Assembly (NCBI RefSeq): GCF_030013205.1
Contig: NZ_CP122648.1
From: Escherichia coli
GTDB taxonomy: Bacteria; Pseudomonadota; Gammaproteobacteria; Enterobacterales; Enterobacteriaceae
DNA length: 64,000 nt
Direction: 5' to 3' (one strand)
A program made the position numbers. Of this stretch, positions 53,264-62,200 are shown one piece after another; position 1 is the stretch's first letter, and each line of letters opens with the position of its first letter.

Positions 53264-56200
53264 TGATAATCCTCCCGCCAGAAGAATAAAACATAGCCCG
53301 GTATACAAGTGTATACCGGGCTTTTTTGTGCACAGAAAACCCCCAGCTAGGCTGGGGGTTCCGGAAAGCTTTCAGCTTTGAGCCAGTTATTAAAACCCCT
53401 TTTGATTTGTTAAAACATCTTGCGGTCTGGCAACTGCAAGTGTCAAACAAGAAATCAAAAGGGGGTCCCAATGGGGAACGAAAAGAGCTTAGCGCACACC
53501 CGATGGAACTGTAAATATCACATGGTTTTTGCGCCAAAATACCGAAGACAGGTGTTCTACAGAGAGAAGCGTAGAGCAATAGGCAGTATTTTGAGAAAGC
53601 TGTGTGAGTGGAAAAGCGTACGGATTCTGGAAGCTGAATGCTGTGCAGATCATATCCATATGCTTGTGGAGATCCCGCCTAAAATGAGCGTATCCGGGTT
53701 TATGGGATATCTGAAAGGGAAAAGCAGTCTGATGCTTTACGAGCAGTTTGGTGATTTGAAATTCAAATACAGGAACAGGGAGTTCTGGTGCAGAGGGTAC
53801 TACGTCGATACAGTGGGTAAGAACACGGCGAAGATACAGGATTACATAAAGCACCAGCTTGAAGAGGATAAAATGGGAGAGCAGTTATCGATTCCCTATC
53901 CGGGCAGCCCGTTTACGGGCCGTAAGTAACGAAGTTGGATGCAAATGTCAGATCGTGTGCGCCTGTTAGGGCGCGGCTGGTAAGAGAGCCTTATAGGCGC
54001 ATTTGAAAAACCTCCGGCTATGCCGGAGGATATTTATTGATCAAAATTCCATTTTCACCGTGAATTGCACTTCACGCGGATCGCCAATCTGATTCCCCAG
54101 ATTATTTGTGGCGATGGAAGAGGTGTAATACGTTTTATCAAACAGGTTTTTGACGTTTAATTGCAGTGTGACCGGATACTGCAATTTCATTTTGTATGCG
54201 GCGAAGGCATCGGCAACGAAATAGCCTGGCAGATAATAGTCAGCCCCATTGGTTGCCGAACGACGGCTTACGCCATGTCCACCACCGCCAAACGTCAGTG
54301 TGTTATTGCCTGGCATGTTATGAATGTCATAGGTCAGGAATAGCGAACCGGTATGACGAGGAACATTCGGCAATGGTTTCCCTGCATAATCAGGATCCTC
54401 CAGAACCTTAGCATCGGTATAGTCGTAGCTGGCAATGATATTAATGTTTTCAGTTAATGCTCCCGCAAGGTCGACTTCTACCCCTCTTGAACGAACGCGG
54501 CCTGCCGTTTTGGCGATGGTTTCATCACCAATACTTTCGGTATACAACACGTTACGTTTATGGATATCAAACAGCGCAATATCTGCGGTTATACCATCGA
54601 ACAGCTCGAATTTTGCCCCGACTTCGTAAGCATTAGATGATTCCGGTGGAAGATCTCCGATGTAGCTGGCAATTGACGATTGCGGCATAAATGTTTGCGA
54701 ATAATTAGCAAATAAGGATACCGATGGCGTCAGTTTGTAGACTAACCCCAGTTTGGGCGTCCATTGTTCATCGCGGCTGTCAGTATTGACATTAAAAGGA
54801 CGGCCTTTACCCGCATACTGCGTGTAATACTGATAGCGGATCCCGGCGACGGCAATCCAGTTATCGGTCAGATAGAGCGCGTCCTGTGCATACGCTGAGT
54901 AGCTCTCCTGTTTGATCGTCTGATCACTGTCCGACGCCGAAACCGTTGTGCATTTGCTGGTATTGCCATAAACGGGGTTGTAGATATTGAAATCTTTAGC
55001 GTTTTTACAGCGAATCATATCTGTGCGCAGAAGATCATAATATTCATATGACACCCCACCCAGAATCTCATTATAGAACCCAGCAATATCAACATTCCCT
55101 TGCAGATCCGCACGAGTAGAATGCATACGCTGGGTAGATCCCTGAGTTGCATCAACACGCCGTGTCAGCGTTCCTGTCGTTGCATCATACGCGGTAACAC
55201 GAGCCTGATTGTCGCTGTATTTATCCTGGCTGTAGCTGTAATCAAAGCGCGCTGTCCACTGGCTATTGAGATGATATTCTGCGTTGAGTTGCGCCAGATC
55301 GGACTGACCATTTGTAATATTAAACGGTTCGTCAAAACGTATTTTTCGATCAACGTTTACGGGCTGTTTCGTCGTAAGGTCGAAAATCGTTCCACGATCG
55401 AACGGAGTTTTATAGTCCCGATGGGAATAGAGCATGGTTACTGTTGCATTATCACCAAACCAGGTGAGTGACGGGGCAATAAATGTACTGCGCTCTTTAC
55501 CGAAGTTTCGCCAGTAATCTTCATCCTGCACTTCCCCCGTCAGGCGGTATGCCAGCTGAGTGCCTTCAATGGGACCTGTGATATCAAGTTGCCCAGTGCC
55601 TCCGCCAAAACTGGAGGACGTGGCTGAGACAGAACCATGGAATGTTTTTTCCGGGCGCTTGGTCACGACGTTAATCAGTCCACCAGGATCGAGAATGCCA
55701 TACAGCGTGGAGGCCGGACCTTTTAGCACTTCCACACGTTCTGTGGCGGCGTTGAAACTGCGAGGAAGTACAGTTCGCAGGCCGTTGGTCATGATGGAGC
55801 CATCCCGGTTAGCACCAAACCCACGACGTACAAAGGCGTCCTGAGTTCCGCCTAATGTATTGGTCTGTACCACGTTACTGACGTTATAAAGCGCTTCATC
55901 CAGCGTCGTCGCATTCTGATTTTCCAGAACCTGATCGCTAACCGTATTGACCACCTGCGGGATATCCAGCATCGGCATATCGGTTAATGTCGCCGTGGAA
56001 GTGCTCAGAGGTTGATAACCATCGGTCGCCTCAGTTGCGGTATTTGCATCCGCTGTCACAGTGATTGTTTCGCCATCTTTGGTCGTTGCAGTGTCGGTTG
56101 CATGAATCATTGGTGCTGCAAAGAGCAGTGAAAAGAGCGCCCGACCTTTGATTCCTGAGAATGAAGGTGTGAACTTAGCCATTTAGTCTGTTATCCCAAA

Positions 56201-59200: not shown

Positions 59201-62200
59201 TTATTCTACGTGGCGGGCAGACGACATTACTGCTGGGGAGCGCCGTATCGGGGGCGTTGTTAGTCATCCTGGCGGATAGCATTGGTCGTTTGGCTTTTTT
59301 GCCTTTGCAACTGCCTGCCGGAATCATTATTTCATTGATTGGTGGACCATTCTTTTTGCTACTGCTCTGGCAGCGCAGGAACAGTTTTTAATGGGAGTTA
59401 TATGCGTTTATTTTTTTCTCTGCTGATACTGTTGTCATTCTTTGCCCGCGCGACAGAACCTGTTCAGGTCTTTACTGATGATTTAGGGCGCAAAGTTACT
59501 GTTCCTGCTCATCCAAAGAGAATTGTCTCTTTACACGATCTTGATATCACTATTCCTCTGATTGAGCTCGGTGTACCTCCTGTCGCCAGCCACGGGCGAA
59601 CCCGGCCTGATGGTAGCCATTTCATTCGATCAGGCGCGTTATTGACAGGTGTCGACTTTGATAATTCATCGATCGCTTTTATTGGCACCGCTGATATTGA
59701 TATTGAAGCGATTGTGGCGGCAAAGCCTGACCTGATCATCACAGAACCGACCCGTAATACGCCCATTGAACAACTGGAAAAAATTGCGCCCACGGTGAGC
59801 ATTGATCATCTCAAAGGAGGCGCGCCAGAAATCTACCGCAAGCTGGCAGAACTTACAGGAACGCAGTCGCAGCTGGCGATACTTGAACGCCGCTATCAGG
59901 CACAAATCAATGCGCTGAAGGCGACGCTGGACAGCCAAAAAATAACGGTATCGGTGATTCAGGCAAATCAGGGAAAAATTAATGTGATGCATAGCTATCA
60001 TTCGCTGGGGCGGGTATTACGCGATGCTGGTTTTCGCTTTCCGCCGCTGATTGAGAGCATTCCTGAAGGTGGGCGAATGGATGTGAGCGCAGAGCGTTTA
60101 CCTGAACTGGATGCCGATTTTGTTTTTGCAACCTGGCGCGGTGACACCGGTGGTAAACCTCAGGATGAGCTGGCAGCAATGGAAAAAGTCATGCCGGGAT
60201 GGTGTCAGTTTCTGACGGCCTGTCGTTCCGGGCGCTATGTGCTGATTTCTCGTGAAGAGGCGATTTCTAACTCCTTTGCATCTCTGGGGCTGATGGCTGC
60301 GCAGATACAATCACAAATTGCGGGACGACCTCTACCGGAGGCTAAATGATCCAGAAAGACAAAACGCGGGTTGATATTTATGGTGAGCGTTTTCGCACTC
60401 GCGCGAGTCAGTTAACGCCTGGGTTAAGAGCTGTCGCAAGCTACATTAATGAGCATCGTGAAGTGGTACTCGAGCAAACGGCGATGGAAATTGCGGCCAC
60501 GTTGAACACTTCCGATGCCACAGTTATCAGGGCTATACAGGCTCTGGGGTTTGCCGGGCTGCGTGATCTGAAACGCACTCTGGAACAGTGGCTTGGTCCA
60601 GCCCTTAGTTCCAGCGAAAAGATGTCTACGACGGTGAGTAACTTGACGAGCGATGTTAACACCGCAATCGACTTTGTTCTTGAAGGGCATTTGTATACTT
60701 GTAATGTCCTGTCAGAGCCTGAAAACCGCCACGCGCTTGCGCAAGCTGTAGCGTTGTTGGTGCAGGCACGGCAAGTCGCTATTTTTGGCATTGGCGCTTC
60801 GGGTATCCTGGCGGACTATACCGCACGACTATTCAACCGCATAGGTTTGCCTGCCACGGCACTAAACCGTACGGGTATTGGCCTTGCCGAGCAACTGATC
60901 GCGCTTCAACGTGGCGATGTTCTGATCATGATGGCGCAAAAATCTGCGCACCGGGAAGGGCTGACAACGCTTCGTGAGGCGAGGCGGCTGGGGATCCCTG
61001 TTATTTTGCTGACAAACGCGCTGGATTCACGTTTTAGCAAAGACGCCAGTATCGTGATTCATGTTCCGCGCGGGGATGAAAAGGGGAAAACGCCACTACA
61101 TGGTACGGTATTGTTGTGTCTGGAAATGATTGTCTGGTCGGTAGCTTCCGCAGTGCCGCAGCGTGCGGTTAAAACCATTAAGCGAATTAACGATTTCCAT
61201 CGAGGACTGAAAACGGGAAGAAAGAATGGCTAATCTGGGCTGAGACCGGTAGCAGCACCGGCCTCTTTTCAGGAATGTTAAATCCCCGGTTGCAGAATAC
61301 GGATATTCATCTCCAGCACGTCGCCTTTTACGGCTTCGCTGTACGCCTTCATGTGCGGGGTTTGCAGATGCGCTTCAAGATGCGCGATGCTTTCCCACTG
61401 CTCAATCATCACGATAGAATCCGGTGCCATAGACTGGAAACTCACGCCAGCAGCGCAATCCACCATTGGCGCATAGCCGTGGCAACCTTCTTCTTTCAGT
61501 ACGGTTGGAACGATTTTAGCAAACTGATCCAATACTGCCTGACGGTGATGTTGACCAGGACGAGTACGGATTTCTGCGATTACGGTAAGCATGGTTAACT
61601 CCTTCTAAAGCCTGAGCTCTAGTTAACGAAAATTTCCACAAGATGCTTGCGATATTCTTCAGTATAGCGGGGAACATCAGGCATTTTTATCACGTCATTA
61701 GCGATAAATGTCGGCAGCGGTTCCATGCCAAGGAATTGGTTTGCTTTATGGAACGGCAGATACACACCGTCAACGCCAACGCCGTGGAAGAACTGATCTT
61801 TTTCGGTGAAGGCTTCCATTGGTGCGTTCCAGGTCAGAGAAAGCATATATTTTTTGCCCTGTACCAGGCCGCCGGAACCGTATTTTTTCGACGGATCTTT
61901 GCGGGTACGACCATCGCTGGCATACAGAGTCCCGTGACCTTCGGTGAATACATCATCAATGTATTTTTTCACTGTCCACGGCGCGCCCATCCACCAGCCT
62001 GGCATCTGCCAGATCACCACATCAGCCCAGAGAAAGTTTTGTACTTCCGCTTTGACATCGTAGTCGCTGTCGGCGCGAACGATGCGAACATCATGCCCGA
62101 GGTCGCGCAGTGTGCCATCCGCGACTTCGGTCAGGGTGTCGTTCAGTTGACCATTGGAGTGGGCGAATTTTTTCGCGCCGTTGATAATCAGGATGTTGCT

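What the first reader, a model, noticed from the sequence alone, without database searches (positions are those of the whole stretch)
53330..61233. Accessory TonB-dependent receptor plus FecCDE-like ABC importer with an RpiR/SIS regulator, inserted with IS200 between parE and ygiN
parE and ygiN are adjacent in the E. coli K-12 reference as I recall it; here about 8 kb lies between them. The cluster looks like an iron-complex uptake system, but the associated regulator is a sugar-phosphate-sensing RpiR/SIS type rather than a Fur, AraC or sigma/anti-sigma system. That suggests the substrate or the regulatory logic may be atypical, for example a glycosylated siderophore or another metabolite. It may correspond to a Fit-like system, which I cannot confirm from memory. 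An IS200 copy abuts it, and a Fur-box-like AT-rich sequence lies in the divergent promoter region (about 56270-56300).
Basis: partly seen in the sequence, partly recalled or inferred. Interest (0 to 1): 0.5.

Follow-up and report, generated by a model that had tools for sequence, protein, structure and literature searches.

The report
The known E. coli Fit iron-uptake locus
This is the already described E. coli "Fit" iron-siderophore uptake gene cluster with its own repressor FitR, carrying a later IS200 insertion at one edge; it is ordinary, although what it transports and what FitR senses are still unknown.

Summary
Between parE and ygiN, which are 47 bp apart in K-12, lie 8,011 bp: a 711-bp IS200C, a TonB-dependent receptor on the minus strand, and a divergent operon of ATPase, two FecCD permeases, a binding protein and a MurR/RpiR regulator.

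This is the published fit system, fitA / fitBCDE-fitR (Ouyang & Isaacson 2006, 2008). All 18 published fit primers map to the expected genes in the expected order. The binding protein is the solved FitE structure (PDB 3BE5/3BE6). The regulator is FitR, shown in print to be an autorepressor acting alongside Fur.

The cassette is in 1,870 of 5,426 complete E. coli genomes. The IS200 at this site is in only 36, so it is a secondary insertion and not the vehicle.

Footprinting across 8 genera shows four invariant promoter elements. Two are Fur-like boxes; one sits on a published CFT073 Fur ChIP-seq summit and the other lies about 21 bp from the second summit. The other two are mirrored TTKACTACTACA elements over both -35 regions, which I propose as FitR operators (inference).

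FitR lacks the canonical SIS phosphosugar motif (AQKSAH in place of SxSGx[S/T]).

Verdict: already known, low interest. The substrate and the FitR ligand remain open.

The parts
51374..53266 (+). parE (topoisomerase IV subunit B), the left flanking core gene
   Evidence: TIGR01055 scores 1250 bits; RefSeq annotation of a 100% identical genome
53296..53328 (+). parE terminator-like hairpin GCCCGGTATAC-AAG-TGTATACCGGGC followed by a T-run. It is shared by all fit+ strains examined and is the last sequence before the IS200 insertion point.
   Evidence: Read from the sequence; alignment with O157:H7 and ATCC 25922
53329..54039 (+). IS200C, about 711 bp (ends ambiguous by 3 nt), with tnpA at 53471-53929 and the STnc490 RNA element at 53338-53461. 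It is a secondary insertion in the parE-fitA spacer and not part of the fit cassette.
   Evidence: NF033573 scores 146.8 bits; Rfam RF01405 scores 146.5 bits; absent at this site in O157:H7 and ATCC 25922; the junction is in 36 of 5,426 genomes
54041..56182 (-). fitA, a TonB-dependent outer-membrane siderophore receptor of 713 aa. It has a signal peptide and a TonB box (ETITVTA) directly at the mature N-terminus, and no N-terminal signalling domain.
   Evidence: TIGR01783 scores 371.5 against a cut-off of 223.5; fitA qPCR primers map at 55362-55438 with 0 mismatches; N-terminus read; the closest solved structures are FetA, FoxA, FhuA and FptA
56183..56555 (.). The 373-bp divergent fitA/fitB control region, 30% G+C. 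This is the fragment that FitR shifts in the published EMSA.
   Evidence: The published fit-promoter primers map at 56204-56225 and 56539-56562; PMC2593036; 10-locus alignment
56279..56299 (.). Fur box A1, ATGTAATTGAGAATCATTCAA. It contains the GAAT-C-ATTC palindrome and overlaps the inferred fitA -10 (TTGAAT on the minus strand).
   Evidence: Invariant in 9 of 10 aligned loci from 8 genera; Salmonella has GATAAT. The same sequence in CFT073 is at 3607973-3607993 and the published Fur ChIP-seq summit is at 3607979.
56311..56322 (-). Element B1, TTTACTACTACA on the minus strand. It comprises the inferred fitA -35 (TTTACT) plus an invariant ACTACA. Proposed FitR half-operator (inference).
   Evidence: Invariant in 10 of 10 loci; one of only two matches in the 64-kb window, where 0.23 are expected
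56473..56484 (+). Element B2, TTGACTACTACA. It comprises the inferred fitB -35 (TTGACT) plus an invariant ACTACA, and is the inverted copy of B1 lying 166 bp away. Proposed FitR half-operator (inference).
   Evidence: Invariant in 10 of 10 loci. A -10-like hexamer (CAAACT, CATGAT, CAATAT or TAAGAT) follows after 17 bp in every locus (read from the alignment).
56509..56527 (.). Fur-like box A2, GAGAATGAGTTTTATTTTT, just downstream of the inferred fitB -10
   Evidence: 13 of 19 matches to the Fur consensus; the core AATGA..TTATT is conserved in all loci; the second CFT073 Fur ChIP-seq summit (3607777) lies about 21 bp from its centre
56556..57365 (+). fitB, the ABC transporter ATPase
   Evidence: Closest models are FecE, FepC and FhuC, all below their equivalog cut-offs; fitB primers map at 56713-56799 with 0 mismatches
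57362..58345 (+). fitC, a FecCD-family permease
   Evidence: fitC primers map at 57981-58076 with 2 mismatches each
58354..59391 (+). fitD, the second FecCD-family permease (RefSeq start; the longest ORF begins at 58342)
   Evidence: fitD primers map at 59046-59105 with 0 mismatches
59402..60349 (+). fitE, a class III periplasmic siderophore-binding protein (RefSeq start; the longest ORF begins at 59339)
   Evidence: 651 bits over all 297 residues of PDB 3BE5/3BE6, which other papers name E. coli FitE; fitE primers map at 59949-60020 with 1 mismatch each
60346..61233 (+). fitR, a MurR/RpiR-family repressor (HTH_6 + SIS) of 295 aa. Its start overlaps the fitE stop by 4 nt.
   Evidence: fitR cloning and qPCR primers map at 60346-60368, 60403-60420, 60449-60536 and 61213-61230; Pfam PF01418 + PF01380 on a 99% identical protein; function from PMC2593036
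61234..61277 (.). Right-hand spacer with a G+C-rich hairpin (GACCGGTAGCAGCACCGGCC) between the fitR stop and the ygiN stop
   Evidence: Alignment with O157:H7, ATCC 25922 and K-12
61278..61592 (-). ygiN, the right flanking core gene
   Evidence: RefSeq annotation

Best explanation
The region is the E. coli Fit system, fitA and the divergent operon fitBCDE-fitR, in its usual chromosomal site between parE and ygiN. A lineage-specific IS200C copy has landed in the non-coding spacer just after the parE terminator.

Mechanism:
- FitA is a TonB-energised outer-membrane receptor that takes up a ferric chelate the cell does not itself make. No biosynthesis genes accompany the cassette in any genus examined.
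- FitE carries the ligand across the periplasm to the FitCD/FitB type II ABC importer.
- Both divergent promoters are shut off by Fur-Fe2+ at two Fur boxes (shown in the literature; located here).
- The cassette's own regulator FitR adds a modest, Fur-independent and iron-independent autorepression by binding the same intergenic DNA (shown in the literature).

Inferred here:
- The FitR sites are the mirrored, invariant TTKACTACTACA elements that overlap the -35 regions of both promoters.
- FitR's SIS domain, which lacks the canonical phosphosugar motif, responds to something other than a classical sugar phosphate, possibly the imported chelate or a product of it. That would give substrate induction layered on iron control.
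- Absence of the locus in K-12 more likely reflects loss, or an old presence/absence polymorphism, than recent insertion here.
For: Identity with Fit:
- All 18 fit-specific primers printed in PMC2593036 map to the window in the right genes, order and orientation with 0-3 mismatches. The three control primers tried (fepA, gst, polA forward primers) do not map.
- FitE matches PDB 3BE5/3BE6 at 651 bits, and that entry is named FitE.
- CFT073 c3770-c3775 is called the Fit pathway. Its FitA and FitB proteins are identical to those of ATCC 25922, whose locus is 97.4% identical to the window and lies between parE and ygiN.

Regulation:
- Published FitR knockout, overexpression and complementation, EMSA on the intergenic fragment, and the fur and fitR single and double mutants (23-, 2.2- and 52-fold).
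- Two Fur ChIP-seq summits with heights 2720 and 2545. One falls inside conserved block A1 and the other next to A2.

Conservation:
- The same six-gene cassette with the RpiR gene last occurs in Kosakonia, Raoultella, Erwinia-like, Serratia, Sodalis and Salmonella genomes in unrelated contexts.
- A 45%-identical regulator ends a similar receptor/ABC operon.
- There are four invariant cis-blocks in an otherwise unalignable spacer. The B element occurs only at these two places in 64 kb.

IS200 is secondary.

Old residency: fit genes differ between lineages by about as much as the flanking parE, ygiN and mdaB (96.6-98.7% against 96.2-97.4%). There are no flanking direct repeats, and no integrase gene is annotated in or next to the cluster.

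Receptor type: TonB box at the mature N-terminus and no signalling domain (Pfam lists).
Against: - The transported ligand has never been identified. PMC5907654 states that the substrate is unknown and is not enterobactin, so 'siderophore piracy' rests on family membership and context.
- FitA, FitB, FitC, FitD and FitE all score below the equivalog cut-offs of Fhu, Fec, Fep and Fox models, so no substrate can be transferred by homology.
- The FitR effect is small (about 2-5 fold) and no inducer is known.
- The assignment of the B elements to FitR is inference. Half of each element is explained by a -35 hexamer, the element is not a palindrome as most RpiR-family operators are, and no transcription start sites are available to me.
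- The second Fur ChIP summit lies between A2 and B2 and so does not discriminate sharply between them.
- The original 2006 paper could not be read.
Confidence: 0.95

Rival explanations
1. This is a distinct, uncharacterised iron-uptake island, not Fit, that was brought into the parE-ygiN spacer together with, or by, IS200.
For: IS200 abuts the cluster. K-12 lacks the whole segment. RefSeq gives only generic product names.
Against: The published fit primers and the PDB FitE entry match. fit+ strains without the IS have the identical junctions. The IS junction is in 36 genomes against 1,870 with fit. The IS200 copy here encodes only the TnpA transposase and lies wholly in the spacer, at one edge of the cluster.
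Confidence: 0.01
2. FitR is a classical sugar-phosphate sensor, as MurR, HexR and NanR are. On this view Fit expression is tied to carbon or amino-sugar metabolism, or the substrate is a glycosylated siderophore whose sugar is phosphorylated after uptake.
For: FitR has the HTH_6 + SIS architecture. The first SIS loop, G-x-G-x-S, is retained. Variant cassettes carry PstS-like (phosphate-binding-protein family) genes next to the regulator, which could hint at a phosphorylated ligand.
Against: The second, phosphate-contacting SIS motif S-x-S-G-x-[S/T] is SQSGRS in 8K3B, SSSGST in NanR 4IVN and NSGET in 5UQI. In FitR it is A-Q-K-S-A-H, and this is invariant in all orthologues. FitR's wider subfamily has AYGRxYRE there. 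No kinase, glycosidase or sugar-catabolic gene is part of the conserved cassette.
Confidence: 0.15
3. FitR has no small-molecule ligand. It is a constitutive negative-feedback autorepressor that merely damps and sharpens the Fur-controlled response.
For: The effect is only 2-5 fold, is independent of iron and Fur, and no inducer was needed or found in the published work. The SIS ligand motif is degenerate. fitR is the last gene of the operon it represses.
Against: The degenerate motif is itself strictly conserved (M-[AG]-Q-K-S-A-H-R-E-G invariant from Escherichia to Sodalis). That argues for a constrained pocket rather than a decayed one. The regulator is retained with the transporter across genera and down to 45% identity.
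Confidence: 0.25

Closest known systems
E. coli Fit system, fitABCDE-fitR (Ouyang & Isaacson, Infect Immun 2006; Open Microbiol J 2008, PMC2593036); CFT073 c3770-c3775; FitE structures PDB 3BE5/3BE6
   Same: Everything is the same: gene order and orientation, the primer sites, the FitE sequence, the RpiR-type FitR, the divergent Fur-controlled promoter region, and the chromosomal site between parE and ygiN.
   Different: This copy, which is 100% identical to porcine ETEC/O139:H1-type genomes, has an IS200C inserted in the parE-fitA spacer. It shows 0-3 mismatches per primer relative to strain i484.
Ferric hydroxamate and related receptors with their ABC importers: FhuA-FhuCDB, FoxA, FhuE, and the pyochelin-type receptors FetA and FptA
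   Same: FitA's best solved relatives are FetA, FoxA, FhuA and FptA. FitE's are YfiY and Bacillus FhuD. The transport logic is the same: TonB receptor, class III binding protein and FecCD-type importer, under Fur control.
   Different: All scores are far below the equivalog cut-offs (for example FhuA 230 against 803, FoxA 165 against 1300), so this is not an orthologue of any of them. There are two separate permease genes instead of a fused FhuB. The cassette has its own repressor.
Ferric citrate system FecA-FecBCDE with FecIR surface signalling
   Same: FitB, FitC and FitD hit FecE, FecC and FecD best among the named models. Both systems add a system-specific regulator on top of Fur.
   Different: FitA has no N-terminal signalling domain; the TonB box is at the mature N-terminus. 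There is no sigma/anti-sigma pair. The specific regulator is a cytoplasmic HTH+SIS repressor, not an activating ECF sigma. All scores are below the Fec cut-offs.
MurR/RpiR-family phosphosugar-responsive repressors: MurR, HexR, V. vulnificus NanR (4IVN), and 8K3B/8JU9
   Same: An N-terminal HTH_6 and a C-terminal SIS domain, repression of an adjacent divergent gene pair, and the first SIS loop GxGxS.
   Different: The regulated genes are an iron-chelate importer and not sugar catabolism. The phosphate-binding motif SxSGx[S/T] is replaced by AQKSAH. The candidate operator is a pair of distant inverted 12-mers rather than a compact palindrome (inference).
Siderophore-responsive AraC-type regulators (PchR, YbtA, AlcR). 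These are named from general knowledge, for comparison of regulatory logic only.
   Same: A pathway-specific cytoplasmic regulator layered on Fur, encoded with the receptor and transporter genes.
   Different: They belong to a different protein family and are activators that bind the cognate siderophore. FitR is a repressor and its ligand, if any, is unknown.

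Membership tests
E. coli Fit system (fitABCDE-fitR) | Six genes: fitA divergent from fitB-fitC-fitD-fitE-fitR (receptor; ATPase, two permeases, binding protein, regulator) | tested here: met
   ORFs and family hits; gene roles as listed in PMC2593036
E. coli Fit system (fitABCDE-fitR) | Sequence identity with the published locus of strain i484 | tested here: met
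   All 18 fit-specific primers of PMC2593036 Table 2 map in the expected genes and orientations with 0-3 mismatches. The three control primers tried (fepA, gst, polA) do not map.
E. coli Fit system (fitABCDE-fitR) | FitE identical or near-identical to the crystallised FitE | tested here: met
   651 bits, residues 19-315 against 1-297 of 3BE5/3BE6; the entry is named E. coli FitE in PMC2966073 and PMC10553834
E. coli Fit system (fitABCDE-fitR) | Direct Fur control of both divergent promoters | tested here: met
   This is a sequence-level test only. Conserved Fur-like boxes A1 and A2 are present. The CFT073 ChIP-seq summit 3607979 falls inside A1 and summit 3607777 lies about 21 bp from the centre of A2. 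Expression itself is not testable here.
E. coli Fit system (fitABCDE-fitR) | FitR binds the fitA-fitB intergenic DNA and represses both directions | not testable with these tools
   Published EMSA and reporter data. Here there is only a candidate operator from conservation.
TonB-dependent siderophore receptors (TIGR01783) | Score above the curated cut-off; plug plus barrel; TonB box | tested here: met
   371.5 bits against a cut-off of 223.5; ETITVTA follows the signal peptide; orthologues carry Pfam Plug + TonB_dep_Rec_b-barrel
Named receptors FhuA, FoxA, FhuE, FecA, Fiu, FepA (NCBIfam equivalogs) | Score at or above the equivalog cut-off | tested here: not met
   FhuA 230.5 against 803; FoxA 164.6 against 1300; FhuE 159.7 against 666; FecA 101.7 against 1100; Fiu 152.4 against 686. 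Substrate cannot be transferred from any of them.
Transducer-type receptors with FecIR-like surface signalling | N-terminal signalling (STN) extension and an adjacent sigma/anti-sigma pair | tested here: not met
   The mature N-terminus begins at the TonB box. No STN domain is listed for orthologues. There are no sigma or FecR genes in the cluster.
MurR/RpiR family regulators | N-terminal HTH_6 (PF01418) plus C-terminal SIS (PF01380) | tested here: met
   Precomputed Pfam on the 99% identical P0001 and P0002; PDB relatives 8K3B, 8JU9 and 4IVN
Phosphosugar-binding SIS domains | Phosphate-contacting motif S-x-S-G-x-[S/T] after the third strand. The role of this motif is taken from established knowledge of GlmS and SIS structures. 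| tested here: not met
   FitR has AQKSAH where 8K3B has SQSGRS, 4IVN has SSSGST and 5UQI has NSGET. This is invariant in 10 orthologues. The wider subfamily has AYGRxYRE. The first loop GxGxS is present.
IS200/IS605 family insertion sequence | TnpA (Y1 transposase) above cut-off; about 0.7 kb in size; structured 5' leader | tested here: met
   NF033573 scores 146.8 against 55. The insert is 711 bp relative to IS-free loci. The STnc490 match covers the full model. RefSeq annotates it as IS200C.
Classical integrative genomic island | tRNA target, integrase and flanking direct repeats | tested here: not met
   No integrase or tRNA gene is annotated in or next to the cluster (no dedicated tRNA scan was run). 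There are no flanking direct repeats. The boundaries lie in the terminator hairpins of the convergent parE and ygiN genes. Divergence matches the backbone.

The most novel reading that the evidence does not exclude
FitR may be the founding characterised member of a large, overlooked branch of RpiR/SIS regulators. This branch has replaced the phosphosugar-binding motif (AQKSAH in FitR, AYGRxYRE in relatives) and senses a non-phosphosugar ligand. In the Fit case the ligand would be the imported ferric chelate or its breakdown product. FitR would act through two mirrored TTKACTACTACA sites over the -35 regions of the divergent promoters, possibly by looping. The result would be substrate-specific induction layered on Fur control by a fold never before linked to siderophore sensing.
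Probability: 0.25. Interest if true: 0.45.

Novelty: already known. Interest (0 to 1): 0.13.

Why it matters
As it stands the finding re-discovers a system described in 2006-2008. Fit is used as a marker of extraintestinal and adherent-invasive E. coli, has a solved binding-protein structure, and is listed in the Fur regulon of CFT073.

Two questions remain open. What chelate does Fit import? What, if anything, does FitR sense? The 2008 paper explicitly left the Fur and FitR binding sites undefined. The conserved elements located here (A1 and A2 for Fur, B1 and B2 proposed for FitR) turn that into a direct mutagenesis and footprinting experiment. The non-canonical but strictly conserved SIS motif gives a concrete reason not to restrict ligand screens to sugar phosphates.

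Knowing the substrate would matter modestly for understanding iron piracy by pathogenic E. coli and Klebsiella, and for siderophore-conjugate drug entry routes.

Tried and rejected
- Fur consensus counting. There were no matches within 3 mismatches anywhere in the window. The best intergenic matches, 12 and 13 of 19, are what shuffled AT-rich sequence gives: 1,472 of 2,000 shuffles reach 12 or more. The count alone is therefore uninformative, and I replaced it with phylogenetic footprinting and published ChIP data.
- The sigma-70 and terminator consensus scan of the control region found nothing. The promoters given here are inferred from conserved spacing only.
- Inverted-repeat search within the spacer. 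It gave many weak pairs. Only I3, the B1/B2 pair, proved conserved across genera.
- The original 2006 Infect Immun paper (PMC1698097) is not held. Its content is cited only through later papers.
- Literature searches for an identified Fit substrate. None was found. The 2018 K. pneumoniae paper says the substrate is unknown.
- Contexts of more distant FitR relatives. P0124 (51% identity) is not next to an iron transporter. P0129 and P0132 sit on contigs too short or uninformative. Only P0128 was informative.
- IS200 as the vehicle of the island was considered and rejected.
- Structure prediction of FitR was considered but not run. The tool returns no coordinates, so pocket geometry could not have been analysed.

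Full report
**1. What is in the sequence**

The ORF list, NCBIfam scans and the RefSeq annotation of a 100% identical porcine ETEC chromosome agree on the following layout:
- parE, 51374-53266 (+).
- An IS200C transposase gene, 53471-53929 (+).
- A TonB-dependent siderophore receptor, 54041-56182 (-).
- An operon on the + strand, separated from the receptor by a 373-bp spacer of 30% G+C: an ABC ATPase (56556-57365), two FecCD permeases (57362-58345 and 58354-59391), a class III substrate-binding protein (59402-60349) and a MurR/RpiR regulator (60346-61233).
- ygiN, 61278-61592 (-), followed by mdaB and qseC.

In K-12 MG1655 the convergent parE and ygiN genes are 47 bp apart. Here they are 8,011 bp apart.

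**2. What it is**

A full-text search led straight to Ouyang & Isaacson 2008 (PMC2593036). That paper describes the E. coli fit system:
- fitA is the receptor.
- fitB is the ATPase, fitC and fitD are the permeases, and fitE is the binding protein.
- fitR encodes an HTH + SIS protein.

The paper prints its primers, so I mapped them. All 18 fit-specific primers hit the window once each (the shortest, a 15-mer, also gives two spurious 3-mismatch hits elsewhere), in the predicted gene and orientation, with 0-3 mismatches. They comprise the qPCR pairs for fitA, B, C, D, E and R, two fitR cloning pairs and the promoter pair. The promoter pair brackets the spacer (56204-56562). The fitR2 forward primer sits on the ATG at 60346. 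The three control primers tried (fepA, gst, polA forward primers) do not hit.

Two independent lines agree. The binding protein matches PDB 3BE5/3BE6 at 651 bits over the whole chain, and other papers name that entry E. coli FitE. The CFT073 genes c3770-c3775 are called the Fit pathway. Their FitA and FitB proteins are identical to those of ATCC 25922, whose locus is 97.4% identical to the window and lies between parE and ygiN. This is the Fit locus, not merely something Fit-like.

**3. The IS200**

O157:H7 and ATCC 25922 carry fit at the same site with the parE terminator hairpin joined directly to the 3' end of fitA. The window has an extra 711 bp at 53329-54039, with the ends ambiguous by 3 nt. 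This insert contains tnpA and a full-length match to the IS200-associated RNA family STnc490.

The fit cassette is present in 1,870 of 5,426 complete E. coli genomes. The parE/IS200 junction is present in only 36. The IS is therefore a late, lineage-specific insertion into non-coding DNA downstream of two convergent genes. It did not deliver the cluster and should not affect it.

**4. Insertion or deletion?**

No integrase or tRNA gene is annotated in or next to the cluster and there are no flanking direct repeats. The boundaries fall within the terminator hairpins.

Between the window and a B2 strain the fit genes are 96.6-98.7% identical. That is the same range as the flanking parE (97.2%), ygiN (96.2%) and mdaB (97.4%). 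This pattern fits an old resident that has co-diverged with the chromosome and is missing from K-12-like lineages. It does not fit a recent acquisition. This is an inference, and a tree-wide reconstruction was not done.

**5. Regulation: what is published**

- FitR overexpression represses fitA- and fitB-lacZ about 3-fold, and a fitR knockout derepresses them. Complementation restores repression.
- Purified FitR shifts the intergenic fragment specifically.
- Repression does not need iron.
- Fur ChIP-seq in CFT073 lists two separate strong summits, at 3607979 (assigned to c3775, height 2720) and 3607777 (c3774, height 2545). These heights are comparable with cirA and fepA.

It has both.

**6. 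Regulation: what I could add**

The 2008 paper left the binding sites undefined. FitR orthologues of 69-89% identity occur in Salmonella, Lelliottia, Kosakonia, Raoultella, Erwinia, Serratia, Sodalis and others. In all seven loci fetched, the same six-gene cassette is present, in unrelated chromosomal contexts.

I aligned the 10 spacers. Most of the spacer is unalignable, but four blocks are invariant or nearly so:
- A1: ATGTAATTGA[G/T]AATCATTCAA (window 56279-56299).
- B1: TGTAGTAGTAAA (56311-56322).
- B2: TTGACTACTACA (56473-56484).
- A2: a GAGAATGAG..TTATTTTT block (56509-527).

A1 carries the GAAT-C-ATTC palindrome, and in Salmonella it reads GATAATCATT. In CFT073 it lies at 3607973-3607993, so the ChIP summit 3607979 falls inside it. 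A2 lies about 21 bp from the second summit. A simple consensus count (12 and 13 of 19) is no better than shuffled sequence; the support is conservation plus ChIP.

B1 and B2 are inverted copies of one 12-mer, TTKACTACTACA, read in the direction of each gene. They are the only two matches in the 64-kb window, where 0.23 are expected. The first six bases are good -35 hexamers (TTTACT and TTGACT). A -10-like hexamer follows after 17 bp in every locus: TTGAAT for fitA, inside A1, and CAAACT, CATGAT, CAATAT or TAAGAT for fitB. The next six bases, ACTACA, lie in the spacer of the promoter and have no reason to be invariant unless a protein reads them.

FitR is the only regulator that travels with the cassette. 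I therefore propose that B1 and B2 are its sites, overlapping both -35 regions. This is an inference, with confidence of about 0.4.

The B1-B2 distance is 166, 179 or 187-189 bp in different genera. These values are roughly whole numbers of helical turns, which is weakly suggestive of looping and no more than that.

**7. The SIS domain**

In HMMER alignments to solved relatives the first SIS loop (FGIGASG) is canonical. The second motif contacts the sugar phosphate in GlmS-type SIS domains (established knowledge). It reads SQSGRS in 8K3B/8JU9, SSSGST in V. vulnificus NanR (4IVN) and NSGET in 5UQI. In FitR it is AQKSAH.

M-[A/G]-Q-K-S-A-H-R-E-G is invariant in 8 of the 10 orthologues aligned and near-invariant in the others. 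An exhaustive search of 1.84 billion representatives found 79 relatives at E <= 1e-30. The closest full-length relatives (30-50% identity) mostly carry AYG[R/K]xY[R/P]E at this position.

FitR therefore belongs to a sizeable RpiR branch that has replaced the classical phosphosugar motif with a different, conserved one. It does not identify the ligand.

A 45%-identical member ends a co-directional operon of receptor, ATPase, two permeases and a binding protein. The link between this regulator branch and iron-chelate importers therefore goes beyond the Fit clade. A 51%-identical member is not so linked.

**8. Substrate**

FitA has a TonB box at its mature N-terminus and no signalling domain. Its nearest solved relatives are FetA (enantio-pyochelin), FoxA, FhuA and FptA. 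FitE's nearest are YfiY and Bacillus FhuD. All NCBIfam equivalog scores are far below cut-off.

No siderophore biosynthesis genes accompany the cassette in any genus. This fits uptake of a chelate made by other organisms.

The literature states that the substrate is unknown and is not enterobactin. My searches found nothing newer.

**9. Verdict**

The object is an already known system in its usual place, with an incidental IS200.

What remains of interest are the unknown ligand of the transporter, the unknown ligand (if any) of FitR, and the now precisely located candidate cis-elements. Interest is low.

Noticed in passing
window 62204-62312: Only 109 bp separate mdaB and qseC here. K-12 has the ygiZ gene (DUF2645 inner-membrane protein) and about 0.7 kb between them. 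O157:H7 has the same short spacer as the window. This is a second presence/absence difference from K-12 within 1 kb of the fit site.
   Followed up: partly
L004 9922-10208 (ATCC 25922, next to mdaB): In ATCC 25922 the gene after mdaB is an Hcp-family type VI secretion effector instead of qseC. The region just beyond fit is therefore also variable in B2 strains.
   Followed up: no
L007 7007-10004; L014 6010-7946: Variant fit-like cassettes carry extra genes between the binding-protein gene and the RpiR gene. L007 has a PepSY_TM membrane protein (the family of FoxB/PiuB-type ferric-siderophore reductases, from general knowledge) and two PstS-family (PBP_like_2) proteins. L014 has one PBP_like_2 protein and one protein with no Pfam hit. 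Phosphate-binding-protein homologues in a siderophore uptake operon are unexplained.
   Followed up: partly
FitR residues 195-205 (window 60928-60960) and relatives P0124-P0180: A large set of RpiR/SIS regulators 30-50% identical to FitR carry AYG[R/K]xY[R/P]E in place of the SIS motif SxSGx[S/T]. The solved but uncharacterised RpiR-family SIS domain 3SHO also lacks the canonical motif. This may be a distinct, unstudied ligand class within the family.
   Followed up: partly
window 53338-53461: There is a full-length match to Rfam STnc490, an Hfq-binding sRNA, inside the IS200 leader. The closest genomes hold about 20 separate places matching the query that included this IS, so this strain background probably carries many copies of the element and of this RNA.
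   Followed up: no
window 63129-63147 (inside qseC): The best match in the whole window to the 19-bp Fur consensus (15 of 19, CATGATGATTAACATAATC) lies inside the qseC coding sequence. It is probably chance. I did not check its conservation.
   Followed up: no
window 56340-56470: The central 130 bp or so of the fitA-fitB spacer is extremely AT-rich and is not alignable between genera, yet its length is kept so that B1 and B2 stay 166-189 bp apart. In E. coli and Kosakonia a TTGCTACA sequence lies 17 nt after B1, forming a further imperfect inverted repeat with TGTAG.
   Followed up: partly
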